Source: an uncultured Clostridia bacterium
Lineage (GTDB): Bacteria > Bacillota > Clostridia > TANB77 > CAG-508
Assembly: GCA_934120045.1 (NCBI GenBank)
Contig: CAKOTF010000003.1
Location: 1,210-65,209, forward strand
Length of the DNA stretch: 64,000 nt
Direction of reading: 5' to 3'
Part shown: one piece after another, positions 2,028-41,228 of the stretch
Layout: each line of letters opens with the position of its first letter
Position numbering within the stretch: position 1 is the stretch's first letter
Notes under the pieces: generated by a model
What the model was told of the DNA's origin: nothing
What the model saw: the letters and a program-made list of their open reading frames with translations, nothing else
Databases searched by the model: none
Program-made: the position numbers and the translations under genes

Positions 2028-3671
<1,644 letters not shown>

Positions 3672-8702: not shown

Positions 8703-8737
8703 CTAATGTTATGAGGCCTTTTTCTTGTATTTAAAGA

Positions 8738-9238
8738 TTAATGATTATTGTCATCATCATAGTAATTAGTTCTTCTATTATTAGAAGAAGCATAATACCA
8801 AATTAAAGCAATAATAACAGCAGTGGCAATAGCAATTATAATCCAAGTCCACATAGTAGAATTCATACCTAAGAAATTACCTGTGTTTGCATCTGTTGCT
8901 GTTCTAGTAGCATTATAACCTGTAGTATTTCTAACTGCTGTATTAGCATCATTACCAATACCAGTCATAATATTATTATTATTAGTATTATTTGTAGTAT
9001 TAGTATTTGCATTATTGTTGTTATTGTTCATATTAGTCATATCATTTATTCCATCTCCAACTCCTTTTACGGCATCTTCAACAGCATTTTCAGCTCCACC
9101 AACAACATCTCTTATACCATTAACAACATTATTACCAGCATTTTGCATAGTATTTTCAGTAGCAAAACTTAAAGTGATAGAAAAAGAGAATATTATTGCT
9201 ATAGCCAAACCAATTGCAAGAAACAATTTTTTACTCAT
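8738..9238 (-). CDS. secreted/membrane protein with an N-terminal signal peptide, an Asn/Thr-rich low-complexity region and a C-terminal TM helix
   Basis: N-terminus MSKKLFLAIGLAIAIIFS, a poly-N/T tract and C-terminal IIIAIATAVIIALIWYY. Confidence 0.55.
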   Translation of the reverse strand: MSKKLFLAIGLAIAIIFSFSITLSFATENTMQNAGNNVVNGIRDVVGGAENAVEDAVKGVGDGINDMTNMNNNNNNANTNTTNNTNNNNIMTGIGNDANTAVRNTTGYNATRTATDANTGNFLGMNSTMWTWIIIAIATAVIIALIWYYASSNNRRTNYYDDDNNH

Positions 9239-27523: not shown

Positions 27524-28510
27524 TTATTTTAATTTCTTTCTTACTTGGTCAATTTGTTCTTGAGTAGCATTTGTACATTTTTTTATTTCGTCATCTTTGT
27601 AATTAAGATTAAGCATATTTTTTATAGTTGAAAATAGATTTTCTAATTTTCCTCTAGTTTCACCAATTTTTATATTTTTCTTCTTTTCCAATCTTATATT
27701 ATTATTAATTCTTTCAATTAAATCTTCCATATTTTCGTTTTTCTCCTTTTCATATAACAATTTTAAAATTTTTGATTTAGAAGTATCATCTAAAGTTTTA
27801 GCAAAAACATATGTTACTAAATTATTAACCCATTCTTTTGTATTAGATGTGTTTGCATGAATTGCAATATATTCAAGTGTTTGTGCTAATTCTAAATGAT
27901 TTTTACACTTTTCAATTAAAAGCATATAAGATATTTTATTGTGGATATTTTTTAATTTATCTATACTGTAAGCATGAATATCAATTAGCTTATAAATTTG
28001 ATTGATAACAAATGATTTGTTAGAAAAATTAAATGTTTGAGTATCTGAAAAATTAGTTGGAATATTCCAAGGTTGTTTTCCTGTGTAAATAACAATTGGA
28101 ACAATTAAAGGATTTTTTAATTCAATTTTATTTTTCTTGATTTCACGCATAAGTTCAGTAGAATATTCTAAAATTCTTCTAGGCATGTCAATGTTTACAG
28201 TGGATTGATGTTCAATTAAATAAAAAGTATTTTGAATTATATCTTTATATAAAATATCTGATTCTCTTCGCTTGTAATTATTTGTAATAAAACTACTATT
28301 ATATATTTTTAAATTTTCTGAATTCACCTCCAATCCAATAAATGTTTTTAAAAAATCTGTCATTTCATATGAACTCTTTAATATTTCTTTGAATGTTTTA
28401 TCATGAACTTGAAATATAACATCTTTAGAAATGATAATAATGTCATTTGAGTAAGTTGATGAAAATTCGCTCGAAGAAATAGAGTTGTTTGTATTTAAAA
28501 ATTTGGGCAA
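27524..28510 (-). CDS. Rpn-family recombination-promoting nuclease / putative transposase (Transposase_31-like)
   Basis: An N-terminal DxxFKxIL...IEHQST region typical of the YhgA/Rpn PD-(D/E)XK family. Confidence 0.55.
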   Translation of the reverse strand: MPKFLNTNNSISSSEFSSTYSNDIIIISKDVIFQVHDKTFKEILKSSYEMTDFLKTFIGLEVNSENLKIYNSSFITNNYKRRESDILYKDIIQNTFYLIEHQSTVNIDMPRRILEYSTELMREIKKNKIELKNPLIVPIVIYTGKQPWNIPTNFSDTQTFNFSNKSFVINQIYKLIDIHAYSIDKLKNIHNKISYMLLIEKCKNHLELAQTLEYIAIHANTSNTKEWVNNLVTYVFAKTLDDTSKSKILKLLYEKEKNENMEDLIERINNNIRLEKKKNIKIGETRGKLENLFSTIKNMLNLNYKDDEIKKCTNATQEQIDQVRKKLK

Positions 28511-28873: not shown

Positions 28874-30931
28874 TTGAAAAATAAAGAAAAAACAAGAAAA
28901 AAGAAGAATCAAGATGGGCCTATAGTAATAGAATTAAATTTAAGTTTAACAGTGGGAATAATTGGAGCAATAATAGCAATAATAGTTGCAATAACAACAG
29001 TAAAAGTAATAACAACAATGATCCAAGCAAATGAAAACAAAAATGCAGCAAATGAAAGTGATATAAATCAATATGCAACATATGTAACAAGTACAACTAA
29101 AAATGAGAGTGGAAATATTGTAGAAGACAAAGATAGTAATGGAAATGTTATAAAAATTCCAGTTCCAAAAGGATATACTGCGTCACAAATAGATGGTGAA
29201 ACATCATTAAATAAAGGCTTTGTAATTTATGAAGGAGATGTAGACTGGAATACAATATTATTAAATACAAGTATGCAAAGTACAAATTCAAGTAATACAA
29301 AACCAGTAAATACTAATACAGAAAGCACACAAAGTAGTAAAACACAGCCTACAAATAGTGAGGAAACACAAAATACAGAAACACAAAGTACAACAACACA
29401 ATCTACAAACACAGAAACAAAATCAACAAATGATATGCCAAACGATGAAGAACAAACAGAAGAAAATACAATAATAGATAATGTTCAAAATACACAAAGT
29501 ACAATGAATACACAAACATCAAGTACAGATGCAACAAATAATAAAACAATAAGTACTGAAAAAACAAGCGAAACACTAAAAACAGAAAATGAAGAAAATA
29601 AAAATGAAAATCAAAATAATATAACAACATCAACAAAACAAGAAGAAAATCAAGAGAATCAAGCAACAAAAAGTACAGTAGAAGATAGCTCAACATCAAA
29701 TAAAGTAACAAATTCAACAGCAAATAATACAACAGAAAGCACTAACCCAAAACAAAATGAGAACAATGAAAATAATATACAAGAAAATCCAAAAGAAACA
29801 ATAGTAGAAAAAAGTACAGAAAATGGAATAGATGGAACGAATGCAGTAGATGTAGAAGATGAAACAGCAGATGATACAGGTACAACAGGTTCAACAGAAT
29901 TAACATTAGAAGAACAACAAAACAAAAATATATTTGATTTACAAAAGGAAAGAAACCAGTATGTATGGGTGCCAGTAAGTAACATATCAGAAATATATGG
30001 AGTAGATAGTAATAAAAAAATATGGGGAAAATTATACAACTTTTCAAGTTCAGGAAGATCAAATAGAAACTGGACAGAAACAAATGGAATAATGAGTATA
30101 ACAAATGCAACAAACTATAGAGAACCAGATGTGTTAAGTAATTTTTCAGGTAACTATGAGTATCAACATTACGACCAAGACGGTTATTCATATATGCACA
30201 GTTATGGATTAGGACAAACAAGATATGAAATGTTAGCACAGGAATTAGAACAAAACTATTTAGAAATAATGGAAAGCATAAAGAAATATGGAGGCTTTTA
30301 TATAGGAAGATATGAAACAGGAGGATTGAACGGAACAGCAGTAGTAAGAAAAATGGACACAAATATAGCTTCTCAAAATTGGTATACGATGTATAAAAAA
30401 TGTTTAACATTAAAAGGAAGTAATGATAATATAAAAACAATGATGATAACAGGAAGTTTGTGGGATGAGACATTAGAGTGGTTAGTGAAATCAGGAGCAA
30501 CGAATTCAGCAGGAACAACATTAACATATCAATTAGTAGGAAGCAATTCAACAACATTCGGAAATTATAATAATGCAACATTTAGTTATATAGCGAAAGA
30601 TGCAGAACAGCCAGTAGAGACAGAGACAAAAGAGACAAGTAAAGGTGTTTTAATACCAACAGGAAGTGCAGAATATACGAAGACGAATAACATATATGAT
30701 ATGGCAGGAAATGTGTGGGAGTGGACTACAGAGGCCTACTCTTCTTTCTCCAGGGTCTATCGTGGTGGCGTTTACAACAGCTACGGCTACGGCTATCCGA
30801 TGGCATACCGTAACGACGGCAGTCCGAGCAACTACAGCAGTGACTTACGGGTGCAGGAGCTTACTTTGCATAAAATAGGGTATCCTGAAACACTGTATCC
30901 TGATACAGCACCAAGAAGAGTAACAAATTGA
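28874..30931 (+). CDS. DGR variable (target) protein: N-terminal TM helix, long Thr/Asn/Gln/Ser-rich linker and a C-terminal FGE-sulfatase / C-type-lectin-fold domain containing the VR
   Basis: YIGRYETG...NIYDMAGNVWEWT...RGG FGE-sulfatase signature. The VR occupies the last about 65 codons. The start may be TTG at 28874 or ATG at 28913. Confidence 0.85.
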   Translation: MKNKEKTRKKKNQDGPIVIELNLSLTVGIIGAIIAIIVAITTVKVITTMIQANENKNAANESDINQYATYVTSTTKNESGNIVEDKDSNGNVIKIPVPKGYTASQIDGETSLNKGFVIYEGDVDWNTILLNTSMQSTNSSNTKPVNTNTESTQSSKTQPTNSEETQNTETQSTTTQSTNTETKSTNDMPNDEEQTEENTIIDNVQNTQSTMNTQTSSTDATNNKTISTEKTSETLKTENEENKNENQNNITTSTKQEENQENQATKSTVEDSSTSNKVTNSTANNTTESTNPKQNENNENNIQENPKETIVEKSTENGIDGTNAVDVEDETADDTGTTGSTELTLEEQQNKNIFDLQKERNQYVWVPVSNISEIYGVDSNKKIWGKLYNFSSSGRSNRNWTETNGIMSITNATNYREPDVLSNFSGNYEYQHYDQDGYSYMHSYGLGQTRYEMLAQELEQNYLEIMESIKKYGGFYIGRYETGGLNGTAVVRKMDTNIASQNWYTMYKKCLTLKGSNDNIKTMMITGSLWDETLEWLVKSGATNSAGTTLTYQLVGSNSTTFGNYNNATFSYIAKDAEQPVETETKETSKGVLIPTGSAEYTKTNNIYDMAGNVWEWTTEAYSSFSRVYRGGVYNSYGYGYPMAYRNDGSPSNYSSDLRVQELTLHKIGYPETLYPDTAPRRVTN
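30731..30866 (+). repeat. DGR variable region (VR)
   Basis: It aligns base-for-base with 32924..33059. About 35 differences all fall where the TR has A, and it ends in a conserved gggtgcaggagcttact (IMH-like). Confidence 0.88.
30889..30906 (+). other. short hairpin (ctgtatc-ct-gatacag) just downstream of the VR/IMH
   Basis: A perfect 7-bp inverted repeat 24 nt after the IMH-like sequence. Such hairpins are known to flank DGR VRs. Confidence 0.4.
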
Positions 30932-31123
30932 AAACATAAAAGGCGAGAAAATTTTTCACAAGTTCATATAAAAAGTAAATAAAAAGCCAAACAATTCTTT
31001 TTAGAATTGTTTGGCAAAATATAAAAATAAACTTATTGTCGAGAGTTATATTTTTATAAAGTCAAATAATGGAAATTGAATTGAATTAATGAGGTAGTAT
31101 AATATTAGGCAGAAAGGAAAAAG

Positions 31124-31522
31124 ATGAAATATATAGAAATACTACAAAAATTACAAAAAGAAGAACCAGACCACATAATTCTGATGAAAAATGGAATCTT
31201 TTTTATAGCAATAGGAAAAGATGCAATAGAATTAAATAAATTAATAGGACTTCAATTAACATGTATGAAAAAAGAATTATGCAAAGTTGGTTTTCAAACT
31301 AAGAGTTTGGAAAAATATATAGAAAAAATAAAAGAAACACAAAAATCATTTATAATATATACATATAATAAAGAAACCCAAAAAGAAGAAAAAATATATC
31401 AATATACAAATGAGCCAGTAACTGAAACAAAAACATGTAATGATTGTAACAAATGCAGTAGAAAAAAAGAAACAGAAGATGAAATAATAGAAAGAGTGAA
31501 AAAACTTGGAACAATATCTTAA
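31124..31522 (+). CDS. DGR accessory ORF with an N-terminal MutS domain-I (mismatch-binding)-like segment and a CxxCxxC motif
   Basis: KYIEILQKLQKEEPDHIILMKNGIFFIAIGKDAIELNKLIGLQLT resembles the MutS N-terminus ([45 protein letters not shown]). It lies between the target gene and avd. Confidence 0.5.
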   Translation: MKYIEILQKLQKEEPDHIILMKNGIFFIAIGKDAIELNKLIGLQLTCMKKELCKVGFQTKSLEKYIEKIKETQKSFIIYTYNKETQKEEKIYQYTNEPVTETKTCNDCNKCSRKKETEDEIIERVKKLGTIS

Positions 31523-31922
31523 TATACAAGATAAGAAAAAGCAAGAACAAAGAATAATAGAAAATAATTGCTTAACAATAATTCCAAAAACAGAAAGATA
31601 TATACAATATATGCTTGACTTAATATTAAAATTACCAAGAACAGAAAAATTTAATATAGGAACAGAATATAAGACGAGTATGTATCAAATGATGGAAGAA
31701 GTAATTTATGTTAGTAAATTACCACTTGAAGAAAGATATACACATGTTATAAAAATAGATGTTTTAGTTCAATTACAAAGAATATATTTAAGACTTATGA
31801 AAAATAATAAATGGATTGATGAAAGAAAATTTAAAATAGCAATAGAGCAATTAGGCGAAATAGGAAAAATAAATGGAGGTTTAATAAAGTTCTATGGCAA
31901 GAACTATAAGAAACCAATTTGA
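31506..31922 (+). CDS. avd: Avd (accessory variability determinant) homologue, a four-helix-bundle protein
   Basis: The ERYIQYMLDLILKLPRTEKF and LVQLQRIYLRLMKNNKWIDERKFKIAIEQLGEIGKINGGLI pattern parallels Bordetella bAvd (ERYERVISYLYPIAQSIPRKH ... LRFWLRFL...AEVGRILGSWI). It overlaps the RT start. Confidence 0.7.
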   Translation: MEQYLNIQDKKKQEQRIIENNCLTIIPKTERYIQYMLDLILKLPRTEKFNIGTEYKTSMYQMMEEVIYVSKLPLEERYTHVIKIDVLVQLQRIYLRLMKNNKWIDERKFKIAIEQLGEIGKINGGLIKFYGKNYKKPI

Positions 31923-32904
31923 TAAATATTTAACATATGATAACTTAATGAAAGCACATAAGTTATCAAGAAAAGGTAAAAACCTAAGAAGGGAAGTAGT
32001 ATTATTTGACTTAAAGCAAGAAGAATATATACAATGGATATATGAACAACTGAAAACAGAAAAATATCAGCATGGAGGATACAGAATATTTATAATAACA
32101 ATACCAAAAGAAAGAAAAGTACAAGCATCAAGATATATAGACAGAATAGTACACAGATGGGTAGTAGATAATTTTTTAAAACCATATTTTGAAACACAAT
32201 TCATAAATACAACATATGCTTGCATAAAAAATAGAGGAATGCATAGAGCAACGCTAGATGTTCAAAAAGCGATGAGACATTGCAAAAATAAATGGCAAGA
32301 TTATTATATATTGAAAATGGATGTAGCAAAATACTTTCAAAATATTGATAAAGATATTTTATTTAAAATTTTAAAAAGAAAGATTAAAGATAAAAAATTA
32401 TTAAACCTAATGTGGAAAATAATATATTCAGAAGAATCACCTAAAGGAATGCCAATAGGAAATTATACTTCACAAACACTAGCAAACATATATTTGAATG
32501 AAGTTGATCAATATGCGAAAAATGAATTAAAATGTAAATATTATTTTAGATATATGGATGATACAATAATTTTATTAAAAACAAAACAAGAAGCTATCAT
32601 AGTACTAGAAAAAATAAGAAAATTCTTAAAAGAAAAGTTAGAACTTGAACTGAATTCAAAAACTCAAATTTTCAAGTCAAAACAAGGAGTGAATTTTTGT
32701 GGATATAAAATTAATGAATATAGATTAAAAATTAGAACAAGAGGAAAAAAGAGCTTAAAAGATAAAGTAAAAAAATTAGAAACGCAAATACAGCAAGGAA
32801 AGTTGACAACAAAAGATGCTTATAAATTTCTAAGTGGACATTTAGGATACATACAAATAGCTAATGTAAAAACATTAGAAAATAAATTATTTTATGAAGA
32901 TTAA
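31894..32904 (+). CDS. DGR reverse transcriptase
   Basis: RT motifs are present, including PIGNYTSQTLANIYLNEVD (the DGR-specific [IVL]GxxxSQ) and FRYMDDTIIL (YxDD). The 336-aa size is typical of DGR RTs. Confidence 0.92.
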   Translation: MARTIRNQFDKYLTYDNLMKAHKLSRKGKNLRREVVLFDLKQEEYIQWIYEQLKTEKYQHGGYRIFIITIPKERKVQASRYIDRIVHRWVVDNFLKPYFETQFINTTYACIKNRGMHRATLDVQKAMRHCKNKWQDYYILKMDVAKYFQNIDKDILFKILKRKIKDKKLLNLMWKIIYSEESPKGMPIGNYTSQTLANIYLNEVDQYAKNELKCKYYFRYMDDTIILLKTKQEAIIVLEKIRKFLKEKLELELNSKTQIFKSKQGVNFCGYKINEYRLKIRTRGKKSLKDKVKKLETQIQQGKLTTKDAYKFLSGHLGYIQIANVKTLENKLFYED

Positions 32905-32923
32905 AATAATAGGGATAAATCGT

Positions 32924-33059
32924 AAGGCCAACTCTACTAACAACAGGGTCTATCGTGGTGGCAATTACAACAACAACGGCAACAACAATCCGATGGCAAA
33001 CCGTAACAACAACAATCCGAACAACAACAACAGTAACAAACGGGTGCAGGAGCTTACTC
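32924..33059 (+). repeat. DGR template repeat (TR), AAC-rich
   Basis: It is homologous to the VR, with adenines at every variable position, and lies immediately 3' of the RT gene. Confidence 0.88.
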
Positions 33060-33243
33060 TAATATCATTCTAGATTATTTATTTCATGGAATAAATACAA
33101 CGAAATATTAGATATTAAAGAGGTTTATTCCTTCCTAATTTAGGTAAAAATGTATCGGCTAATTATGTGTTAGTAGTTATTATGAAAATATGTAATTTAG
33201 CAAAAATATTTTGAATAAAAAATTCAAAACATAGGAATAAGAA

Positions 33244-33516
33244 ATGAATGAATGTTTTTTTATAGGAAAAATAATAAAAAACAATGGATTTAAATTTATT
33301 TTAAACAAAAAAAATAAATCTAAAATTGAATTTGAACTGAAATTAATAGATAATAACATATTAAAAATAGTTGCATATGATGAAAAAGCAGATTTTATAT
33401 TCAGAAATAATTTTGATATAAATGATATTGTTTTCATTAAGGGAAAAATAAGAACAGAACATGAAAAATTAATAATTGTTATTAATTATATAGAAAAAAT
33501 ATTTAGGAAAAAATAG
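33244..33516 (+). CDS. small hypothetical protein upstream of the pilus operon
   Basis: A 90-aa ORF with no recognisable motifs. Confidence 0.35.
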   Translation: MNECFFIGKIIKNNGFKFILNKKNKSKIEFELKLIDNNILKIVAYDEKADFIFRNNFDINDIVFIKGKIRTEHEKLIIVINYIEKIFRKK

Positions 33517-33536
33517 AAGGGAGGTATACCAAAGAA

Positions 33537-36500
33537 ATGAGCAAAAAGAAACTTACGAAAAAAAGTATAATATTAAGAACAATAATTGTACTAATAGCAG
33601 TAAGTATAGTAATTGGTATATATGTATTAAACAAAACACAAAAAATTGATAAATCTACAATGTCATCAGAATTACAAAGAACACAAGCATATGATGATGT
33701 AAAAGATGGAGATAATGCAATAAAAGATAATGCTGGAAATACAGTAAATGCAGTAAAATTTGATGCATTTTTCTTAAAAGATAAAAATGGAGACGGAGTA
33801 GCAGAATCAATAAGAGGAACATGTAATGAAATAGGAAGCCAAGCAAGTTTATACATGGAATTAAGTGTACTTGAACAAGGAAGACTAAAAGATGGAAAAA
33901 TAACAATTAATTCTAACAACTTTTATTTTAATACAACAATTGTAAAAGACAACGAAGTAAAAGACAACTATATTTCATCAAATACAAAAGAAATAAACTT
34001 TAATGAAATAGGTAATGGTACACAAAAATTATTAATAGGTTCAGTTCGTTCAGGTGATTATTCAAATTCTTATACAAAAACAAGTGCAATTGGAAATGAT
34101 ACAACAAAATATAGTAAAGAAAATTCTATAACATTTTCAGGAACATTTGTAGATAGTGAAGGGAATGAAACTACATTTTCTAAGGAAGTTCCGTTTACAG
34201 TTGACTGGTATGGTGAAACACATGTAGAAATTGATCCTAAAAGTCAAACTGTAGAAGTTACAGAAATGAATGATTTATCTACAGAAGATGGAGTAAAATT
34301 AAATTTTAATATTAGAACTGTAGAAAATAAAAACCAATTAAGTATATCAAGTTCAGAAATTAGTGGAACTATACCAGAATTAAATGGATATAAACCAACA
34401 TCAGTAAAAATATCTGGAACAAATGTAACATATACATATGATGCAGAAACAAGTGAATTTACAGCACAAAGAACAGCTGTGTTAAATGAAACTGGAGTTA
34501 TAACTTCAAATGGATATTCTTATTCATACTCTTCTGGTAATAGATATACAGAATTTAATTTTGAAATAACATATCCGGAAGAAGCATATACAGCTTTAGG
34601 TCAAGATGTAACAAGTTTTGAATTAGCAATTCCTGTACAAGCAGTAACAAGAGGATATAACAATCCAAATGAAGAAGACGGATTTATAAATCCATATGTA
34701 TCAAATACTGCAACAGGAATAGTAACAACAACATGGAGAAAACATGTAGGGCAATTATATGATTTTGCTATATATGTAGGAACATATATGGGTTCACCAT
34801 ATAATACATATGTTATTCAAAAGAAGAAACCATTAAACATTTATAATGGAATATCAGCAGAAGAAAAAAATGATACATATTTAGTACAATGGAGAACATA
34901 TACAGGCTCAAATGGTGCAACAGATGGAATAATAATGAATGAAACAACAGGAAAAACAGATTCATTTTTAAACACATCAGCAAAATATGAATCAATGGAT
35001 GAATTAACAACAAATGTTGGAATTTATTTTAGTGGTGCAAATAATGCATTAAATTCTGATGGATGGATTAAAGTATATGATGCAGATACAGATACACTAA
35101 TAAATACATTTACAGAAGAAGACTGGTCAGACTATACTTCTTCAAATCCATATAAATACGAAAATTCTATAAAACATATTAGAGTAGAAACAAGTAGTAC
35201 AAATGAACAATGTTATTTCTATGTAAATAATATCAAAGAATTAGATGATGAATATATAACAACAAAATATACAAAAGAAGAATTTGACAATTTATCATAC
35301 ATATACAGTTATTTAGATGGAAAAATGATAAAACCAAAAACAGATGAAAATGAAGAAACAACATATTGTTTTAAAGAAAGTGAAAGTAATAGAGCATTAT
35401 ATCAAGCACCAACATCTGTTGCAACAATATCAATAAAAGACAATACAATATCAACACATGTAACAGCAGAACACCAACAAATAACAATATCAACACAAAC
35501 ATCAGGATATAATGAACAAGGTTGGAAAAATAGTTCATTTTTAGTACAATTACCAAGTGAAATAATACTTGGAGAAATTAATACTGTAACAACAAATAAT
35601 TCAAATGTAAAAATAACAGCATATGATATATATGAAGAAAATGGAAATTATTACATAAGAATATTAACAGAAAATTCAAATGAGGAAACATTTAATATTA
35701 TAGTAGATTGTGATTTAACACCAGACCCAAGAATAGCAAAAACAACAAAATATGTAAAATTATGGGCTAAAAATGGAATAGCATCAGATTATTATTATTC
35801 TGGTGAAGATAAATATGATGTTGATGGAAATTCTAATACAACAGAAAAAGTAAATTATAGAGAAACATCATTTACATTTGATCCAGGTTCAAGTTTAAGT
35901 ACAACTCAAGTAGGAAGTAATTATGATGGTGAAGGTGGTATAACAATAGCACCAAGAGTTGCAAAAACAGATAAAGGACAAAGAACAGCAACAATTACAG
36001 TATCTGCAACAAATAATTACACATATGATATACAAGACTTGAAAATATTGGGTGTAATACCATTTGAAGGAAATCAATTTGTAATTAGTGGAAATGATTT
36101 AGGTTCAACATTTACAACATATATAAGTAAAGGTGGATTATCAACAATAACTAATGCAATAAAAGATAAAGTAAAAATATATTATTCAACAACAGAAAGA
36201 CCAAGCAAAGATGTAGAAGATTTAGCAAATGGTTGGAAATTAGCTAATGATGTTGAAGATTGGACAAAAATAAAAACATATTTAATTGTATTAGATAATT
36301 CATATAAATTATCATCAGGAGATAAAATTGAATTTGAATATGAAATCAATTTACCAGAAGGTGTTGATTATAATAAAATAGCATATTCAGAACATGCAAT
36401 ATATTTCGCATTAAATACTGATGAAGGATTATATTATACCTCAACAGGCTCTGCAAGATTAGGATTTATGATAGCAAAACAATATGATTTAGAAATTGTA

Positions 36501-39500
36501 AAATATCAAAAAGATACTGAAAAAACATTACAAGGAATAACATTTGCAATTACTGAAGATGGTGCAGAAACAAGTACAATTAAAACAACAGATGCAGATG
36601 GAAAACTTTTAGTAACAGGTTTATATGCAGAAAGATATTATACAATAAAAGAAATAAAAACAACAGATGATTATGTATTAAATCAAGAAGAAATAAGATT
36701 TTATACATACACAAAAATAAATGAAGATGGATCAGAGAGTTTATATTTAACATATCCAAATAAAGAAAATGAAAGTACACATTTGAATGTTATATATAAA
36801 ACAGTTAGAAATGACCAAGTAAATCCACCAAGTAATGGAAAAGATTATAAAATTCAAGTAAAAGTTAATAATGAAGTAAAAGCTAAATTAAAAATTAATA
36901 AAACAGATTTATCTGGAAATGTTTTAAAAAATGTTAAATTTATATTAACAGGAGAAGGAAAAAATGGCGAGATATTAACAACAGATAAAAATGGAGATAT
37001 TAATACATCAGGACTTCTTTTAGGTAAAGAATATACATTAGAAGAGATAAAAGCAACAGGTTATTATATTCCACAGACAAAAATTAAGTTTACAATATCA
37101 AATAATAATGGAAATTTTGAATTAAATTATACAGATAATAATACAACAAAAACAAAACAGATTATAACAACAGATGAAATACCAACAATAGAGTTAAATT
37201 TACAAAATGAAAAAATACCTACATATAGTTTACAATTAACCAAATATGCAAAAGGAGAAAAAGATACAAATGGAAATGATAAAAAATTAGCAAAAGCTCA
37301 ATATTTAATTAAAGGTGAAGGCATAAAAGATGAAGGTAAGATTTATACAACAGATGATAATGGAGTTCTTACAATAAATGATTTATATGAATATGTAGAA
37401 GGAAAATATATAACAGGTGAATATATATTAAAAGAAATTTATGCACCAGAAGGATATTCTCTAGACTCTACTGAATTGAAATTTAAAGCATATAGAGAAA
37501 ATGGGACATTGAAAATACAAATTCTTGAAGGTGATTCTGTAATTAGAAAGATTACAGTTGATGGTGTAGATAAAACAGACTTAAATATAAAAGATGCAGC
37601 TACTTCAAATGCAATAATTGAAATAGGTGTTGAAGATGGACAAATATTTTCAATTTATAAATATTATCAAGATGGTACAAGTTCAGCTAAAAAGCCAATA
37701 CCTGGAACAAGATTTAAAATTACAGATTTAAATGGAAATTATGTTACAGGTTCAGATGGGAAGACTGTTGGACAATGGTTTGATACAACTCCAGAACAAT
37801 TACCTGTACCAGATATAACATTATCTTCTACAGGAACATATCAATGGACACAAAGAGATGATGGAACTTGGGAAAGTACAGGAATTTATCATCAAGCAAG
37901 TAAAACAACAACATTGACATCAAATGAAATAGATTTAAAGCAAGCAGCAACATTGAAATTTGATTGGTCAGTATCATCTGAAAGTGTAAGTTATGATTAT
38001 GTTTATTATACAATTACAAATTTAGATACAAATAAAGTAGTAAATGGAACAGGAACATCAACCAAAATTGGTGGAACAAGTTATGGAACAGTTTATGAAA
38101 GTTTGAAATTTTTAAATGTATCATTAGATTTAACAGCAGGAAAATATAAAATCGAATTTACTTATAGGAAAGATGGATCAGGAGATAAAGGCTTAGACGC
38201 AGCTTTTATAAGAAATGTAAGATTTGAACAAAAAGAAGTTGAAAAAACAGGATATTATGCTGTAACAACAGATTCAAATGGACAAATAACAGCAAATTTA
38301 CCAGAAGGTTTATACAAGGCAATAGAAGTATATACAAATGATAGATATGTATTACCAGAAAAAGAAGCAGATAGAACATATTATTTTGGAATTGGTTCAT
38401 CACAAGCAGCAACATGGGATTGGGTAACAGGATTAACAGGAGAAGGTTGGAACTATGTAAATTCAGTTTCTGCACAAAAAGATGGAGGAGTAATAGCAGT
38501 TGGTTCATTCTCTAAATATTCAACAAATGTTGTAGCAAATGCTGTAGATGGAATTGATATAGATAATGATGGAACAGTTGATGAAATATCAGAAGGAAGC
38601 AATGATGGACTAATAATATCTTATGATACAGACGGAAAAGTAGTATGGTCAAAAACATTTGGAGGAGATAGTGATGATTCATTAAATAAAGTTATTCAAA
38701 CATCAGATGGAGGATATGTTGCAGTTGGATATGCTGAGAGTAATTCAATAAAATATGATGGAAAAATAATAAGTGAGCTTTCAAGAACATCAACAGATAA
38801 TTTATCACAAAAAGATGCAATATTATTAAAAATAAGTAAAGATGGAACTTATGAATGGGGCTTAAGAATTGGTGGAACAGGTGATGATGAAATACAATCA
38901 GTAATAGAAACAAGTGAAGGAAATTTCGCAATTACAGGAAACTATTATAGTTCACCATTTAACTTTTTTGATAGAGCAGGAACTGAAGTCAAAGGAACAA
39001 TGACAAATACTGGAGAAAGAGATGCATTTGTAGCATCATATTCTTCAACAGGAATATATCAGTGGAGTTCAGCAATAGGAGGAACAAATAATCAAGATGC
39101 GCCAGATTTAACAGAATATTCTACAGGAATTGCAGTAGCATCAAATTCAAGTACATCAGCACGTATCAGCTTATATTCATTAACAGGATCAGCTATAAAA
39201 AGTGCATTTTTAATAGGTAGTGGAACAAGCAAAATAACAAGTTTAGATACATATACAGATGGAACAATTATTGCAGGTGTAAATTATACAGGAACACAAT
39301 TTGATGCAGGAATATATAAAATAACAACAACAGGAAGTTCAACAAGAATTTATGAATTAACAGGAACTTATGATGAATATGTATCAGATGTACAAGTAAC
39401 ATCAGATGGAGGAATTTTATTTGGAGGCTGGTATTATTCAACAGATACAGCTGGAAGTGATGGAACAACATTTGAAGAAAAATCTGGTGAATATGCATGT

Positions 39501-41228
39501 GATGGATATGTAATAAAACTAAATTCAAAAAATGTTGTTGAATATTCAAGCAGATTATATGGAGACAATTATGATGGAGTAAATACAGTTACAGAAACAA
39601 GAAATGGAGCATTAGTATCTGGAGGATTTTATAATTCGTCAACATTTAGTGCAACAAATTGTAAAATAGAGAAAAGTGAAGATGATACAACACCAGTAGA
39701 ACAAATGCTTACAAGAGTTGGAAATTCAGAAGCATTTATAATAGCAGAAGGTGCATCAGGTGCAGAAGTACCAGAATCACAAAAATTAGAAGTTGAAAAC
39801 CAAATAAAATCATTCAAAATAACAACAGAGGTTAAAAAGAAAAATAATGTAGCTGGTGGAGATATAGATGGACAAACAGGTGTAACAATAGATGGAGTTA
39901 ACTATACAAAAGACGGAATAAGATATGTAGAAAAAGTAAAATATGGAGAAAATTCAAAAAATGCAATAAAAATAACACCAAATGCAAAATATGTAATAGA
40001 CAGTATAATAATAAATGGAAAAGAATATACAAACTTTACAACAGCAGAAGATGGAACAGTAACATTACCAATATTTGATAATGTATTAGAAGATAAGCAC
40101 ATTGTAGTACAATTTAGTAATACAATGGCAAATATAGAAGTAAATCATTATCTATGGACAAAAGCTGATGGGCCAACAACTACAAAAGTAGCAGAAACAC
40201 AAACAAGTACAGGAGAAGTTGGAACAACATATGAAACATCACCAAATACAGATATAGAATATGTAATTATAACAAATTCAGATTATTATGGTGAGAATTT
40301 ACCAGAAGGAGTAGTAGGAAGTGATTACTATATTCCAGCAAATTATAAAGGAACATATACAGAAGGAACAAAAGAAGTAATAAATTATTATTATAAAGAA
40401 AAAACATATAAATTAACAGTTCATCACTATTTAGATGGAACAACAGAATCAGTACCACTTAAAGATTCAACAACAGGTGAAAAAGTAGCAGATGAAATAA
40501 CAGAAGATTTAAAGAAAAATAGTGAATACACAACAACACAAGCAGGAGAAACAAAAATAGATTATTCAATTTATGAACTAGTTTCAATTCCAGAAAATGC
40601 TACTGGAACAATACAAGAAGATACAGAAGTAACATATTATTATAAAATAAAAACAGCAGATATTAGAATAACTAAAGTAGCAGAAGAAGATCATGAAAAA
40701 ACATTAGTAGATACGCAATTTGTATTATATCAATTTGTAGGAACAACTTCAAAAGATGAATTGATAGATACAAAAAATGTAAGCTCAGATTGGAAATTAA
40801 TTGGAACATATGCAACATCAAATTTAGGAATATTAAAACTAGAAAATTTACCAATAAATGAAGAATATAGATTAATAGAAATAAAAGCAACAGAAGGAAG
40901 AATAATTCCAGATGGACAATGGAAAATTCAATTTGTTACTGGAAATTATGACACAACAGATACATCAATAGTTACTATTAATGGGGTACCATTTAAAATA
41001 AATGCAATAGGAAATCCACCAGCTATGGTAAAAACAGATGATGGAAAACTATTACTTCCAAACAAGGAATATTATAAATTTCCAACAAGTGGAAGTATAG
41101 AACTAAAAATGTTTTATCAAACTGGAATGATTATTGTTACGATAGGGGTTGTTATAATGGCTCTTATAATAGTAAAAAGGTGTTATGTAAAAAACACTAA
41201 AAAAGTAAAGAAAGGGAGAAAACACTAA
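33537..41228 (+). CDS. giant (2563-aa) pilus tip/surface adhesin with an N-terminal signal-anchor, several Cna-B/SpaA-like isopeptide domains, an SBBP beta-propeller repeat region and a C-terminal membrane anchor
   Basis: Repeated domains of the form LEIVKYQKDTEKTLQGITFAITEDG...YYTIKEIKTTDDY (prealbumin-like fold). Repeats GGDSDDSLNKVIQTSDGGYVAVGY and GGTGDDEIQSVIETSEGNFAITGN are SBBP-type. The C-terminus has a hydrophobic helix and a KRK tail after FPTSG. Confidence 0.85.
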   Translation: MSKKKLTKKSIILRTIIVLIAVSIVIGIYVLNKTQKIDKSTMSSELQRTQAYDDVKDGDNAIKDNAGNTVNAVKFDAFFLKDKNGDGVAESIRGTCNEIGSQASLYMELSVLEQGRLKDGKITINSNNFYFNTTIVKDNEVKDNYISSNTKEINFNEIGNGTQKLLIGSVRSGDYSNSYTKTSAIGNDTTKYSKENSITFSGTFVDSEGNETTFSKEVPFTVDWYGETHVEIDPKSQTVEVTEMNDLSTEDGVKLNFNIRTVENKNQLSISSSEISGTIPELNGYKPTSVKISGTNVTYTYDAETSEFTAQRTAVLNETGVITSNGYSYSYSSGNRYTEFNFEITYPEEAYTALGQDVTSFELAIPVQAVTRGYNNPNEEDGFINPYVSNTATGIVTTTWRKHVGQLYDFAIYVGTYMGSPYNTYVIQKKKPLNIYNGISAEEKNDTYLVQWRTYTGSNGATDGIIMNETTGKTDSFLNTSAKYESMDELTTNVGIYFSGANNALNSDGWIKVYDADTDTLINTFTEEDWSDYTSSNPYKYENSIKHIRVETSSTNEQCYFYVNNIKELDDEYITTKYTKEEFDNLSYIYSYLDGKMIKPKTDENEETTYCFKESESNRALYQAPTSVATISIKDNTISTHVTAEHQQITISTQTSGYNEQGWKNSSFLVQLPSEIILGEINTVTTNNSNVKITAYDIYEENGNYYIRILTENSNEETFNIIVDCDLTPDPRIAKTTKYVKLWAKNGIASDYYYSGEDKYDVDGNSNTTEKVNYRETSFTFDPGSSLSTTQVGSNYDGEGGITIAPRVAKTDKGQRTATITVSATNNYTYDIQDLKILGVIPFEGNQFVISGNDLGSTFTTYISKGGLSTITNAIKDKVKIYYSTTERPSKDVEDLANGWKLANDVEDWTKIKTYLIVLDNSYKLSSGDKIEFEYEINLPEGVDYNKIAYSEHAIYFALNTDEGLYYTSTGSARLGFMIAKQYDLEIVKYQKDTEKTLQGITFAITEDGAETSTIKTTDADGKLLVTGLYAERYYTIKEIKTTDDYVLNQEEIRFYTYTKINEDGSESLYLTYPNKENESTHLNVIYKTVRNDQVNPPSNGKDYKIQVKVNNEVKAKLKINKTDLSGNVLKNVKFILTGEGKNGEILTTDKNGDINTSGLLLGKEYTLEEIKATGYYIPQTKIKFTISNNNGNFELNYTDNNTTKTKQIITTDEIPTIELNLQNEKIPTYSLQLTKYAKGEKDTNGNDKKLAKAQYLIKGEGIKDEGKIYTTDDNGVLTINDLYEYVEGKYITGEYILKEIYAPEGYSLDSTELKFKAYRENGTLKIQILEGDSVIRKITVDGVDKTDLNIKDAATSNAIIEIGVEDGQIFSIYKYYQDGTSSAKKPIPGTRFKITDLNGNYVTGSDGKTVGQWFDTTPEQLPVPDITLSSTGTYQWTQRDDGTWESTGIYHQASKTTTLTSNEIDLKQAATLKFDWSVSSESVSYDYVYYTITNLDTNKVVNGTGTSTKIGGTSYGTVYESLKFLNVSLDLTAGKYKIEFTYRKDGSGDKGLDAAFIRNVRFEQKEVEKTGYYAVTTDSNGQITANLPEGLYKAIEVYTNDRYVLPEKEADRTYYFGIGSSQAATWDWVTGLTGEGWNYVNSVSAQKDGGVIAVGSFSKYSTNVVANAVDGIDIDNDGTVDEISEGSNDGLIISYDTDGKVVWSKTFGGDSDDSLNKVIQTSDGGYVAVGYAESNSIKYDGKIISELSRTSTDNLSQKDAILLKISKDGTYEWGLRIGGTGDDEIQSVIETSEGNFAITGNYYSSPFNFFDRAGTEVKGTMTNTGERDAFVASYSSTGIYQWSSAIGGTNNQDAPDLTEYSTGIAVASNSSTSARISLYSLTGSAIKSAFLIGSGTSKITSLDTYTDGTIIAGVNYTGTQFDAGIYKITTTGSSTRIYELTGTYDEYVSDVQVTSDGGILFGGWYYSTDTAGSDGTTFEEKSGEYACDGYVIKLNSKNVVEYSSRLYGDNYDGVNTVTETRNGALVSGGFYNSSTFSATNCKIEKSEDDTTPVEQMLTRVGNSEAFIIAEGASGAEVPESQKLEVENQIKSFKITTEVKKKNNVAGGDIDGQTGVTIDGVNYTKDGIRYVEKVKYGENSKNAIKITPNAKYVIDSIIINGKEYTNFTTAEDGTVTLPIFDNVLEDKHIVVQFSNTMANIEVNHYLWTKADGPTTTKVAETQTSTGEVGTTYETSPNTDIEYVIITNSDYYGENLPEGVVGSDYYIPANYKGTYTEGTKEVINYYYKEKTYKLTVHHYLDGTTESVPLKDSTTGEKVADEITEDLKKNSEYTTTQAGETKIDYSIYELVSIPENATGTIQEDTEVTYYYKIKTADIRITKVAEEDHEKTLVDTQFVLYQFVGTTSKDELIDTKNVSSDWKLIGTYATSNLGILKLENLPINEEYRLIEIKATEGRIIPDGQWKIQFVTGNYDTTDTSIVTINGVPFKINAIGNPPAMVKTDDGKLLLPNKEYYKFPTSGSIELKMFYQTGMIIVTIGVVIMALIIVKRCYVKNTKKVKKGRKH

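What the first reader, a model, noticed from the sequence alone, without database searches (positions are those of the whole stretch)
28874..33060. Complete diversity-generating retroelement with an FGE-sulfatase/C-type-lectin-fold target
The last about 136 bp of the 685-aa membrane-anchored protein (VR, 30731-30866) is repeated at 32924-33059 (TR), just after a reverse transcriptase gene. In my base-by-base alignment every one of the roughly 35 mismatches sits where the TR has an adenine. Examples are TR aac aac aac versus VR agc tac ggc and TR aat versus VR gtt. This is the adenine-specific mutagenesis signature of DGRs. The RT carries IGNYTSQ, the DGR-type [I/V/L]GxxxSQ that replaces QGxxxSP of group II intron and retron RTs, and YMDD. 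An Avd-like gene sits just upstream of the RT. Both repeats end in the same GC-rich gggtgcaggagcttact (IMH-like), and the sequences diverge immediately afterwards. The target C-terminus (GNVWEWT...RGG) is the FGE-sulfatase C-type-lectin fold that DGR variable proteins commonly use. The cassette looks intact and potentially active and would diversify a surface-displayed ligand-binding domain. The TR is dominated by AAC codons, which gives the maximum amino-acid repertoire.
Basis: seen in the sequence. Interest (0 to 1): 0.9.

Follow-up and report, generated by a model that had tools for sequence, protein, structure and literature searches.

The report
Intact, recently active diversity-generating retroelement
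This is a genuine, complete diversity-generating retroelement (DGR) in the chromosome of a low-GC gut Clostridia bacterium that rewrites the tip of a membrane-anchored surface protein. DGRs are a well-known kind of system, but this lineage also carries a MutS-like protein, a tiny SSB-like protein and a structured RNA (Rfam RT-14) that had no assigned role.

Summary
VR (30731-30865) and TR (32924-33058) are a 135-nt ungapped repeat with 26 mismatches, all at TR adenines (P about 8e-13). All 80 non-A positions are identical.

The RT is DGR-type. Its best solved relative is Bordetella phage bRT (E 7e-41, against 1e-20 for group II RTs). It has IGNYTSQ, YMDD and the Arg74 equivalent. Avd lies upstream.

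A sister strain is 99.5% identical in the flanks. Its VR differs at 28 of 132 positions, all at TR adenines, which argues for recent mutagenic retrohoming. That strain has since lost the 3' end of avd, plus the RT, TR and downstream parts, in a 1.6-kb microhomology deletion.

- A MutS-domain-I-like gene (MSL, a published DGR accessory class).
- The Rfam RT-14 RNA, which starts exactly at the TR 3' end. This is the position the priming 'Sp' RNA holds in phage BPP-1.
- A 90-aa SSB/PriB-like OB-fold gene, present in 66 of 71 related cassettes. I found no paper describing it.

Verdict: a new member of a known kind (MSL-type chromosomal DGR). The RNA assignment and the mini-SSB accessory add modest novelty.

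The parts
28874..30931 (+). Target (variable protein) gene, 685 aa. It has an N-terminal basic stretch and a single TM anchor (aa ~23-50), a T/N/E/S-rich low-complexity linker (aa ~125-355), and a C-terminal FGE-sulfatase/CLec-type domain carrying the VR.
   Evidence: ORF. Kyte-Doolittle maximum of 2.65 at aa 23-47 and linker composition. Pfam PF03781 E 2.4e-5 (full protein) and 4.5e-6 (C-domain), above the gathering score. 38 of 49 homologs hit PF03781.
30731..30865 (+). Variable repeat (VR), encoding aa 620-664 of the target.
   Evidence: 26 of 26 mismatches to the TR are at TR adenines; the sister-strain VR differs at 28 positions, all at TR adenines.
30847..30865 (+). IMH-like 3' tail of the VR (ACGGGTGCAGGAGCTTACT). 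It is identical in the TR and in both strains' VRs. Its 4 A are never mutated.
   Evidence: The last variable A is TR position 116.
30986..31015 (.). Terminator-like hairpin (13-bp stem) after the target gene. It separates the target from the accessory/RT operon.
   Evidence: This is only a consensus match.
31076..31103 (+). Promoter-like site (TTGAAT-16-TATAAT) ahead of the MSL-avd-RT-TR unit.
   Evidence: This is only a consensus match, and such sites are not enriched over shuffles.
31124..31522 (+). MSL: a MutS-domain-I-like accessory protein, 132 aa. It overlaps the avd start by 17 nt.
   Evidence: Pfam MutS_I E 1.5e-7, 32 bits against a cutoff of 20.6. It is present upstream of avd in 55 of 65 related loci. 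The family conserves G-x-F...GKDA and 4 Cys. MSL is a published DGR accessory class (PMC5758913).
31506..31922 (+). avd (accessory variability determinant), 138 aa, pI 9.5. It overlaps the RT start by 29 nt.
   Evidence: Pfam bAvd 1e-16. NCBIfam DivGenRetAVD 5.7e-18, which is below its curated cutoff of 80 bits. phrog_3206 'Avd protein of DGR' 9e-17. Present in 64 of 65 relatives.
31894..32904 (+). DGR reverse transcriptase, 336 aa. It carries IGNYTSQ, YMDD and the PKER arginine equivalent to bRT Arg74.
   Evidence: PDB best hit 8ub7 (sequence identical to the BPP-1 Brt over the aligned residues), E 7e-41, against 1.4e-20 for the best group II RT and 1e-19 for the best retron-type RT. BLASTP against BPP-1 Brt gives 31% identity, E 4e-50, full length. 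phrog_1423 E 2.5e-106.
32924..33058 (+). Template repeat (TR). It starts 20 nt after the RT stop. It has 55 A, 53 of them at codon positions 1-2 in the VR frame, and 17 AAC plus 3 AAT codons.
   Evidence: The ORF 32894-33073 that spans it is most likely a by-product of the TR's origin rather than a gene.
33057..33201 (+). RT-14 RNA (Rfam RF02921), fused to the TR 3' end. I interpret it as the 3' (Sp-like) domain of the DGR RNA.
   Evidence: 109.1 bits against a gathering score of 48.1, full length. It starts within 0-9 nt of the TR end in 11 of 11 relatives, including the two tested loci (L019, L020) where the TR lies upstream of the RT. 15 of 34 pairs show compensatory changes. In BPP-1, RF03022 occupies the same position.
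33244..33516 (+). Mini-SSB: a 90-aa SSB/PriB-like OB-fold protein, pI 9.6, without an acidic C-terminal tip. It is a candidate DGR accessory gene.
   Evidence: 30 of 51 family members hit Pfam SSB, best 2.9e-6. AlphaFold2 pLDDT 88. The Foldseek PDB top 50 are almost all bacterial SSB/PriB chains (a yeast mitochondrial SSB and two telomeric OB proteins are the exceptions), TM up to 0.84. A homolog lies within 1.2 kb downstream of the RT in 66 of 71 loci. 4 of 4 divergent members follow MutS_I-bAvd-RVT_1 cassettes.

Best explanation
This is a complete chromosomal diversity-generating retroelement of the MSL-containing type. The layout is target(VR) | MSL - avd - RT - TR - RT-14 RNA - mini-SSB.

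Proposed mechanism:
1. The accessory operon is transcribed. The transcript segment made of TR plus the RT-14 structured RNA forms the DGR RNA.
2. The RT-Avd complex binds the RT-14 domain. It self-primes from that domain and starts cDNA synthesis inside the invariant GC-rich 19-nt tail of the TR.
3. The complex copies the TR while misincorporating opposite adenines, about 51 mutable A, mostly in AAC/AAT codons. This allows roughly 1e29 protein variants.
4. The single-stranded cDNA replaces the VR in the 3' part of the target gene. The shared IMH-like tail guides this step.
5. The target lies on the inferred leading strand, so the cDNA is complementary to the lagging-strand template. That is the orientation found to be favoured experimentally.
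6. The result is a re-drawn ligand-binding surface on an N-terminally membrane-anchored, extracellular FGE-sulfatase/C-type-lectin-type domain.

What is shown by sequence and comparison: the components, the A-specific TR/VR pattern, VR turnover between strains, the RNA structure and its fusion to the TR, and conservation of the accessory genes.

What is inferred by analogy to phage BPP-1: priming from the RNA, the cDNA start site and the homing route.

What is inferred from fold only: the mini-SSB coats and protects the cDNA, and MSL binds the cDNA:target heteroduplex or shields it from mismatch repair.
For: - TR/VR: 26 of 26 mismatches at TR adenines, all at codon positions 1-2, and 80 of 80 non-A positions conserved.
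- RT: closest to BPP-1 bRT, with IGNYTSQ, YMDD and the Arg74 equivalent. These residues promote adenine mutagenesis in bRT (PMC7826257).
- Avd, MSL and RT form overlapping ORFs.
- Sister strain L082/L083: the flanks diverge by 0.53%, while the VR differs at 28 of 132 positions, all at TR adenines (hypergeometric 5e-14; binomial against the flank rate 3.5e-36). Its VR against the window's TR shows 31 of 31 mismatches at A.
- RT-14: full-length Rfam hit abutting the TR in the window and in 11 of 11 relatives, with covariation support. The BPP-1 Sp RNA (RF03022) abuts its TR in the same way. Sp binds Avd and supplies the priming site, A56 (PMC7826257).
- Orientation: GC skew is positive on the + strand in all 16 bins. 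Co-directional targets are favoured experimentally (PMC12875486).
- Family: 298 related RT loci, and most that have enough flank show the same architecture and A-biased TR/VR pairs.
Against: - There is no direct evidence of present-day activity. There are no reads and no within-sample heterogeneity, and all three contigs carrying this RT share one target sequence.
- The strain comparison shows at least one retrohoming event since divergence, but not in which lineage it happened.
- The target's CLec fold is supported only by a short Pfam match (about 48 aa). AlphaFold2 failed (pLDDT 36.5) and the profile-to-PDB search found nothing.
- No conserved hairpin follows the VR, and the TR and VR tails are identical. 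So the IMH/IMH* asymmetry and the cruciform that direct homing in BPP-1 are not evident here.
- The roles proposed for RT-14, MSL and the mini-SSB are analogies. RT-14 is not homologous by Rfam to the BPP-1 RNA.
- GC skew is partly confounded by coding-strand bias.
Confidence: 0.93

Rival explanations
1. The element is a structurally intact but now silent DGR. The TR/VR pattern and the between-strain VR differences would then be relics of past activity, and the element is on its way to decay, as in the sister strain.
For: - The sister strain has already deleted the 3' end of avd, plus the RT, TR, RT-14 and most of the mini-SSB gene. This shows the module is dispensable and can be lost.
- Only one VR sequence is seen on the three contigs that carry this exact RT.
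- Related sub-lineages have an RT reading frame broken at YxDD.
Against: - All five ORFs are open, and the catalytic and signature motifs are intact.
- There are no non-A differences between TR and VR across 80 positions, although neutral drift accumulated 0.5% divergence in the flanks between strains.
- The RT-14 RNA scores well above threshold.
Confidence: 0.12
2. The RT belongs to a retron, a group II intron or a defence-associated RT system, and the repeat is an unrelated duplication or gene-conversion tract.
For: The NCBIfam best hit is the group II intron RT/maturase model (131 bits), and PADLOC lists many DRT models.
Against: - Those hits are far below the family cutoffs (131 against 300 bits; DRT models at most 105 bits) and reflect generic RT homology.
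- bRT scores 144 bits, against 77 for the best group II RT.
- The motif is IGNYTSQ, not QGxxxSP (PMC7826257).
- No intron RNA or retron ncRNA family is detected; only RT-14 matches.
- A duplication or conversion tract would not confine 26 of 26 and 28 of 28 differences to adenines of one copy.
Confidence: 0.01
3. The 90-aa OB-fold gene (and perhaps MSL) is only a syntenic neighbour or a passenger of the cassette and has no role in retrohoming.
For: - There is no experimental link, and neither PADLOC nor PHROGs matches it.
- 5 of 71 related cassettes lack it and 10 of 65 lack MSL.
- BPP-1 needs only bRT, Avd and the RNA for cDNA synthesis (PMC7826257).
Against: - It stays directly downstream of TR/RT-14, or of the RT where the TR is upstream, across RTs that have diverged to 62-79% identity.
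- It keeps that position in four divergent members whose further-downstream neighbours all differ.
- The family of 596 proteins is compact (80-90 aa) and distinct from housekeeping SSB.
- An ssDNA-binding fold fits a system whose intermediate is ssDNA and which is inhibited by ExoI (PMC12875486).
Confidence: 0.3

Closest known systems
Bordetella phage BPP-1 DGR (mtd-avd-TR-Sp-brt), the reference system
   Same: - The RT is homologous over its full length (31% identity, E 4e-50) and has the same signature residues.
- An Avd is present.
- TR length is 135 nt here against 134 nt in BPP-1.
- Differences between TR and VR are adenine-only.
- The VR lies near the 3' end of the target gene.
- The last roughly 17-19 nt of the TR are not mutagenised. 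In BPP-1, cDNA synthesis starts at TR G117 of 134; here the last variable A is TR position 116 of 135.
- A structured RNA of about 130-145 nt lies immediately 3' of the TR.
   Different: - The context is chromosomal rather than phage. All phage RTs are at most 41% identical.
- The gene order is avd-RT-TR rather than avd-TR-RT.
- The RNA belongs to a different Rfam family (RF02921, not RF03022).
- There are extra MSL and mini-SSB genes.
- The TR and VR tails are identical, so no IMH/IMH* asymmetry is visible.
- No convincing hairpin follows the VR.
- The target is a membrane-anchored cell-surface protein rather than a tail fibre.
MSL-containing DGRs ('Architecture D' of Wu et al. 2018, PMC5758913; includes the Legionella DGR)
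   Same: A small MutS-domain-I-like gene (132 aa, within the published 112-283 aa range) occurs together with avd and without HRDC. The setting is chromosomal and non-phage.
   Different: This lineage adds a conserved SSB-like gene, and I show that its TR is fused to RT-14. MSL here is mildly basic (pI 8.7, against the published mean of 7.2) and carries four conserved Cys. I could not check whether Wu's 'PAG1-4' candidates include the OB-fold gene, because the supplements are not held.
Rfam RT-14 (RF02921) and Phage_DGR (RF03022; the RT-10 motif of Weinberg et al. 2017, PMC5737381)
   Same: The window holds a full-length RT-14 member. Like the BPP-1 RNA, it begins at the TR 3' end and is a multi-stem RNA of similar size.
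   Different: Weinberg et al. linked only RT-10 to a DGR and left RT-14 without a role. The two families do not cross-match. Priming from RT-14 is untested.
Bacterial SSB / PriB OB-fold proteins
   Same: The fold is a five-stranded OB barrel with a helix between strands 3 and 4. TM is 0.80-0.84 to SSB domains (3koj, 1z9f, 1ue7), and Pfam SSB is hit in 30 of 51 members.
   Different: It is only 80-90 aa, has no disordered linker and no acidic C-terminal tip (it ends ...IFRKK), and shares 9-18% identity with solved SSBs. It is encoded inside a retroelement cassette.

Membership tests
Diversity-generating retroelement (DGR) | TR/VR repeat pair whose differences are confined to adenines of the TR | tested here: met
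   26 of 26 mismatches at TR-A, P 7.7e-13, and 80 of 80 non-A positions identical.
Diversity-generating retroelement (DGR) | RT of the DGR clade with the [I/V/L]GxxxSQ motif in place of QGxxxSP, plus YxDD | tested here: met
   IGNYTSQ and YMDD are present. The best solved relative is bRT (144 bits, against 77 for the best group II RT). The protein aligns full-length to BPP-1 Brt. phrog_1423 scores 358 bits. I did not build a formal phylogeny.
Diversity-generating retroelement (DGR) | Accessory variability determinant (Avd) adjacent to the RT | tested here: met
   Pfam bAvd 1e-16, above cutoff. phrog 'Avd protein of DGR' 9e-17. The NCBIfam equivalog scores 65 bits, below its cutoff of 80.
Diversity-generating retroelement (DGR) | VR located in a variation-tolerant ligand-binding fold (C-type lectin / FGE-sulfatase type) at the C-terminus of the target | tested here: inconclusive
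   Pfam FGE-sulfatase scores above the gathering threshold, but over only about 48 aa. 38 of 49 homologs also hit it. The AlphaFold2 model is unusable (pLDDT 36.5). The profile-to-PDB search gave no hits, and single-sequence PDB hits to PorK/SUMF2 have E 0.03-0.06.
Diversity-generating retroelement (DGR) | IMH-type GC-rich element at the VR 3' end, with IMH* at the TR, and a downstream hairpin/cruciform | tested here: inconclusive
   A GC-rich 19-nt invariant tail is present in both repeats, but the two copies are identical, so there is no IMH/IMH* difference. The only hairpin (30893-30908, 6 bp) is not better than shuffles (z -0.5), and hairpins are not conserved in relatives (17 of 53 loci against 18% of controls).
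Diversity-generating retroelement (DGR) | Evidence of mutagenic retrohoming: the VR varies between isolates at TR-A positions while the TR scaffold is fixed | tested here: met
   The sister strain's VR differs at 28 of 132 positions, all at TR adenines, against 0.53% divergence in the flanks. This evidence is indirect and historical. Present-day activity was not tested.
Diversity-generating retroelement (DGR) | Structured RNA 3' of the TR that recruits RT-Avd and primes cDNA synthesis (Sp of BPP-1) | tested here: inconclusive
   A covariation-supported structured RNA (RT-14) abuts the TR in 12 of 12 loci, in the same position as RF03022 in BPP-1. Binding and priming cannot be tested here.
MSL-type DGR (Architecture D, Wu et al. 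2018) | A small MutS-like accessory gene in the cassette, together with avd and without HRDC | tested here: met
   Pfam MutS_I scores 32 bits against a cutoff of 20.6. The gene is 132 aa and overlaps avd. No HRDC hit was found in the cassette proteins. The definition comes from PMC5758913.
Rfam RT-14 (RF02921) | Score at or above the curated gathering threshold over the full model, with the consensus helices supported | tested here: met
   109.1 bits against 48.1, model positions 1-144. 15 of 34 pairs show compensatory changes in 12 sequences.
Canonical bacterial SSB | OB-fold ssDNA-binding domain | tested here: met
   AlphaFold2 pLDDT 88. The Foldseek top 50 are almost all bacterial SSB/PriB chains (a yeast mitochondrial SSB and two telomeric OB proteins are the exceptions), TM up to 0.84. 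Pfam SSB is hit in 30 of 51 members. This shows the fold only; DNA binding was not tested.
Canonical bacterial SSB | Disordered linker and acidic C-terminal tip that recruits partner proteins | tested here: not met
   The protein ends about 5 residues after the last strand, with the basic sequence IFRKK. Family members are 80-90 aa. I therefore file it as SSB-like, not as an SSB.
Retron / group II intron / defence RT (DRT) | A family-specific RT model above cutoff and the cognate ncRNA or intron RNA | tested here: not met
   NCBIfam group II 131 bits against a cutoff of 300; retron St85 65 against 235; Drt3a 68 against 200. PADLOC gives only generic RT-level hits. No intron or retron RNA family is found in 30600-33600.

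The most novel reading that the evidence does not exclude
This gut-Clostridia DGR lineage may be a distinct architectural variant in which the element encodes its own DNA-handling factors for steps after cDNA synthesis.
- The tail-less mini-SSB would coat the adenine-mutagenised cDNA. Because it lacks the acidic tip, it would keep host SSB-recruited nucleases such as ExoI away.
- The MutS-domain-I-like protein would bind the mismatch-rich cDNA:VR heteroduplex and shield it from mismatch repair.
- The orphan Rfam RNA RT-14 would be the Avd-binding, self-priming domain of the DGR RNA. A conserved unpaired A lies 56 nt past the TR end, at 33114, the same distance as Sp A56 in BPP-1.

If true, this would give the first element-encoded handles on the still-unknown cDNA integration step of DGRs.
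Probability: 0.35. Interest if true: 0.65.

Novelty: new member of a known kind. Interest (0 to 1): 0.4.

Why it matters
DGRs are the only known prokaryotic system for targeted protein hypervariation, and they are abundant in gut microbiomes. [quoted passage not shown]

This locus on its own is one more DGR. Three things about it could be useful beyond that:

1. It links an orphan Rfam RNA (RT-14) to the DGR RNA of a large lineage of gut Clostridia, with 298 related loci among species representatives.
2. It points to a conserved SSB-like protein, alongside the known MutS-like one, as a candidate element-encoded factor for cDNA protection and integration. Recent E. coli reconstitution work implicates ssDNA exonuclease I and lagging-strand access in that step.
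3. A natural pair of strains gives a ready comparison for studying DGR turnover and loss. One strain has the full element. The other has a clean RT/TR deletion and a differently diversified, now frozen VR.

The target is a membrane-anchored surface protein of uncultured, low-GC gut bacteria. The element therefore probably tunes adhesion or ligand recognition in the gut.

Tried and rejected
- AlphaFold2 on the target C-terminal domain, using 49 homologs, gave pLDDT 36.5. The model was unusable, so I ran no fold search on it.
- A profile of the target family against PDB sequences gave no hit. The single-sequence search gave only marginal PorK/SUMF2 hits.
- A metagenome scan with the TR scaffold (A replaced by N) plus the IMH-like tail found no further TR/VR copies.
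- Looking up the exact RT returned only the window's own contig.
- The hairpin downstream of the VR is a 6-bp stem with folding energy no better than shuffles. Perfect hairpins of 6 bp or more are only weakly enriched in relatives. I rejected it as an established feature.
- My first VR comparison with the sister strain was off by one base and gave nonsense. I corrected it.
- A full-text search for '8UB7' found nothing. I established the identity of that chain by comparing it with the BPP-1 genome record instead.
- The supplements of Wu et al. 2018 are not held, so I could not check whether their PAG1-4 candidates include the OB-fold gene.
- The mini-SSB profile against PDB sequences gave only non-significant hits. 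The fold assignment rests on Pfam and the predicted structure.
- I considered retron, group II intron and DRT readings and rejected them.
- I considered a prophage context and rejected it. The flanks are housekeeping genes and are syntenic in the sister strain, and phage RTs are at most 41% identical.

Full report
**1. Observation**

The repeat finder reports one 134-nt direct repeat (30732-30865 / 32925-33058, 81% identity, spacing 2193) as the largest family in the region. MAFFT aligns the pair without gaps.

Over 30731-30865 against 32924-33058 (135 nt) I count 26 mismatches. Every one has an adenine in the downstream copy: 13 A>T, 12 A>G and 1 A>C. The TR holds 55 A in 135 positions, so 26 of 26 on A has a probability of 7.7e-13. 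All 80 non-A positions are identical. A scan of both strands of the whole window with the non-A scaffold finds only these two copies. All mismatches lie at codon positions 1 or 2 of the 685-aa ORF.

- There are 26 mismatches, not about 35.
- Position 30866/33059 is the first base after the repeat.
- The VR encodes aa 620-664, and 21 more codons follow it.

The last 19 nt (ACGGGTGCAGGAGCTTACT) are identical in both copies, including four unmutated A. Similarity ends right after them. VR and TR are 54% and 46% G+C, in a window of 26.8% G+C.

**2. Components**

- **Target gene (28874-30931).** The protein has a basic N-terminus, one strongly hydrophobic segment (aa ~23-50), a T/N/E/S-rich linker and a C-terminal domain. 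The C-terminal domain hits Pfam FGE-sulfatase above the gathering score. 38 of 49 homologs do the same. The family is large, with 5,243 hits.
- **Transcription signals.** A terminator-like hairpin (30986-31015) and a promoter-like site (31076-31103) separate the target from the next unit. These are consensus matches only.
- **Accessory operon.** Three overlapping ORFs follow:
  - A 132-aa MutS-domain-I-like protein (31124-31522; PF01624, 1.5e-7).
  - Avd (31506-31922; bAvd, 1e-16).
  - The RT (31894-32904).
- **TR.** It begins 20 nt after the RT stop codon.

**3. The RT is DGR-type**

Against all PDB sequences, the best hit is 8ub7 (E 7e-41, 144 bits). The best group II intron RT scores 1.4e-20 and the best retron-type RT scores 1e-19. 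I fetched the BPP-1 genome record. Its annotated Brt has the sequence aligned in 8ub7. It matches the window RT over the full length (31% identity, E 4e-50). PKER pairs with PKPR (Arg74), IGNYTSQ pairs with IGSLTSQ (Ile181), and YMDD is conserved.

Handa et al. (PMC7826257) describe [I/V/L]GxxxSQ as the DGR signature that replaces QGxxxSP. They also show that Arg74 and Ile181 promote adenine mutagenesis.

PHROGs places the RT in phrog_1423 (E 2.5e-106) and Avd in 'Avd protein of DGR'. NCBIfam and PADLOC give only sub-threshold, generic RT matches to group II, retron and DRT models.

**4. Evidence of activity from a sister strain**

The target protein's 90% cluster holds one other member, P0002 (684 aa, 97% identical). 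Its differences cluster in the VR. Its contigs (L082 and L083, from two data sets) are syntenic with the window and 99.1-99.3% identical in DNA on both sides.

With the register corrected (one search was off by one base):
- The two VRs differ at 28 of 132 aligned positions. All 28 are at TR adenines (hypergeometric 5e-14).
- One codon is missing in the sister VR, inside an AAC run.
- Divergence outside the VR is 0.53%, against 21% inside it (binomial 3.5e-36).
- The sister VR against the window TR shows 31 mismatches, all at A (27 A>G, 4 A>T).
- Of the 18 adenines substituted in both strains, 7 carry different bases.

The two VRs therefore look like separate draws from the same template. At least one retrohoming event has happened since the strains split.

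The sister strain has since lost about 1.62 kb (window ~31872-33490). The deleted stretch holds the 3' end of avd, the RT, the TR, RT-14 and most of the next ORF. The junction lies at an A-rich microhomology (GGAAAAATA / GAAAAAATA). Only one copy of the IMH-like sequence remains in that locus. Its VR is therefore presumably frozen, unless a second DGR elsewhere in that genome can act on it. I could not check that possibility.

**5. A structured RNA fused to the TR**

Rfam's RT-14 (RF02921) matches 33057-33201 full length, at 109 bits against a gathering score of 48. It is the only RNA family hit in the region, even at E up to 1. It starts two bases before the end of TR/VR homology.

In 11 of 11 related loci tested, RT-14 begins within 0-9 nt of the TR 3' end. 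This includes L019 and L020, where the TR lies upstream of MSL-avd-RT rather than after the RT. The RNA therefore follows the TR and not the RT gene.

In a 12-sequence alignment, 15 of 34 predicted pairs show compensatory double changes.

Weinberg et al. (PMC5737381) found RT-1 to RT-19 near RT genes. They tied only RT-10 to a DGR (BPP-1) and speculated about the others. In BPP-1, Rfam's Phage_DGR family (RF03022) lies 5 nt after the TR, in the Sp spacer. Sp binds Avd and provides the priming nucleotide A56, and cDNA synthesis starts at TR G117 of 134 (PMC7826257).

Here the last variable adenine is TR position 116 of 135. A conserved unpaired UAUUAAAG lies 55-62 nt after the TR end, and its A33114 sits at +56. 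By position, size and structure, RT-14 is the Sp-equivalent of this lineage. Binding and priming are inferred, not shown.

**6. Accessory genes across the family**

The RT has 298 relatives among GTDB species representatives. All of the best 80 come from low-GC uncultured Clostridia-type gut MAGs of human, sheep, chicken, rabbit and other origin. The closest is 79% identical.

- **TR/VR pairs.** A self-BLAST screen finds A-biased TR/VR pairs in about 50 of the 80 loci. Most of the others lack enough upstream flank.
- **Avd and MSL.** Avd precedes the RT in 64 of 65 loci with enough flank, and MSL in 55 of 65. MSL is a published accessory class: Wu et al. 2018, 16 of 372 DGRs, 'Architecture D', found with avd and never with HRDC (PMC5758913). 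The MSL family here keeps the G-x-F...GKDA core and four conserved cysteines.
- **Mini-SSB.** The 90-aa ORF at 33244-33516 has a homolog within 1.2 kb downstream of the RT, on the same strand, in 66 of 71 loci.
  - 30 of 51 family members hit Pfam SSB (best 2.9e-6), and 15 hit the generic OB-fold model.
  - AlphaFold2 gives pLDDT 88, with five strands and one helix.
  - The 50 best Foldseek PDB matches are almost all bacterial SSB or PriB OB domains (a yeast mitochondrial SSB and two telomeric OB proteins are the exceptions), with TM up to 0.84.
  - The protein has no linker and no acidic tip.
  - A profile search finds 596 family members.
  - Four divergent members with long contigs all sit directly after MutS_I-bAvd-RVT_1, and their further neighbours differ in every case.
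  - I found no paper in the library that links a DGR with an SSB or OB-fold accessory. I could not inspect Wu's PAG1-4 list.

**7. Mechanism**

The best-supported reading is canonical mutagenic retrohoming, with lineage-specific extras. The statement under 'best explanation' marks which steps are shown and which are inferred.

One further piece of context supports it. GC skew is positive on the + strand in all 16 four-kb bins, including those dominated by minus-strand genes, and most genes are on the + strand. The target is therefore probably co-directional with replication. That puts the cDNA's complement on the lagging-strand template. A 2026 E. coli reconstitution found this to be the favoured orientation and also identified ExoI as an inhibitor (PMC12875486). 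This makes an element-encoded, tail-less SSB-like protein and a MutS-domain-I-like protein plausible helpers for cDNA survival and for heteroduplex survival. That idea is a hypothesis from fold and context only.

The theoretical repertoire is about 1e29 protein variants, from 51 mutable adenines.

**8. What does not fit the BPP-1 template**

- The TR and VR tails are identical, so no IMH/IMH* asymmetry is visible.
- The only hairpin after the VR is weak (z -0.5). Hairpins are not conserved in relatives (17 of 53 loci, against 18% of random segments).
- Directionality may instead come from RT-14 being attached only to the TR.
- The target's C-type-lectin fold remains a sequence-level inference.

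**9. Verdict**

The element is a new member of a known kind: a chromosomal, MSL-type DGR from gut Clostridia. It was recently active by comparative evidence.

The added value lies in three places: the assignment of RT-14 as the TR-linked DGR RNA domain, a conserved mini-SSB candidate accessory gene, and a natural RT/TR-deletion sister strain. For a specialist the DGR itself is unsurprising, and the accessory findings are moderately interesting.

Noticed in passing
L084-L086 (RT ~2612-3620) and L087-L088 (RT ~495-1500): In two related species found through mini-SSB relatives, the DGR RT reading frame shifts (-1/+2) exactly at the catalytic YxDD. The sequences are TAT CTC TC GAT GAT (L087) and TAT CTC CT GAT GAT (L085). 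Both halves stay open and conserved (about 70-80% identity between the species). This looks more like recoding, programmed frameshifting or a split RT than a plain pseudogene. However, the target gene looks fragmented in L084 and L086. The window and 79 of 80 species-representative loci have an intact RT.
   Followed up: partly
window 33537-41228 (+): A 2563-aa SpaA-domain surface protein lies directly after the cassette. It ends in ...KFPTSGS, then a hydrophobic segment, then a basic tail, which resembles a sortase sorting signal. Homologs of its N-terminus follow the DGR in several relatives (L001, L004, L007-L010, L014, L017, L019, L022, L067). I do not know whether this is only synteny or a functional pairing of two surface proteins.
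   Followed up: no
L007, L008, L009 (~8100-9100); L009 VR2 at 8941-9074; L027 9137-9211: Some relatives carry a second target paralog downstream of the mini-SSB gene. In L009, a second A-biased VR matches the same TR. Several MAGs hold two or three separate copies of this DGR type (JAAWKD01: L035, L037, L070; CALXCF01: L041, L044; CALXRJ01: L050, L054).
   Followed up: no
window 27524-28510 (-): A YhgA-like putative transposase (PF04754, E 6e-27) lies immediately upstream of the target gene on the opposite strand. It is also present at the same place in the sister strain.
   Followed up: no
window 32894-33073 (+): A 59-aa ORF spans the TR in the VR reading frame (MKIKIIGINRKANSTNNRVYRGGNYNNNGNNNPMANRNNNNPNNNNSNKRVQELTLISF). 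It is most likely a by-product of the TR being a copy of coding sequence, and it could be mis-annotated as a gene.
   Followed up: no
window 31124-31522 (MSL) and relatives: Besides the MutS-domain-I core (G-x-F...GKDA), the MSL family conserves four cysteines: LTCM, CKVG and a C-terminal CxxC. This suggests a possible zinc site that is not part of MutS domain I.
   Followed up: no
10-30 nt downstream of the VR in many relatives (e.g. L007 5167+, L019 4482+, L023 1263+): A recurring short motif of the form ..CTGA(A/G)xxCT.. follows the VR in many loci. Examples are GCACTGAGCCCTG, AAGCTGAATGCTT and TATCCTGAAACACTG. It lies in the coding tail of the target. I did not resolve whether it is a DNA-level homing signal or a conserved peptide.
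   Followed up: no
window 30731-30865 and 32924-33058: The VR (54% G+C) and TR (46% G+C) are strong compositional islands in a 26.8% G+C genome. This could serve as a quick screen for DGR repeats in very low-GC genomes.
   Followed up: no
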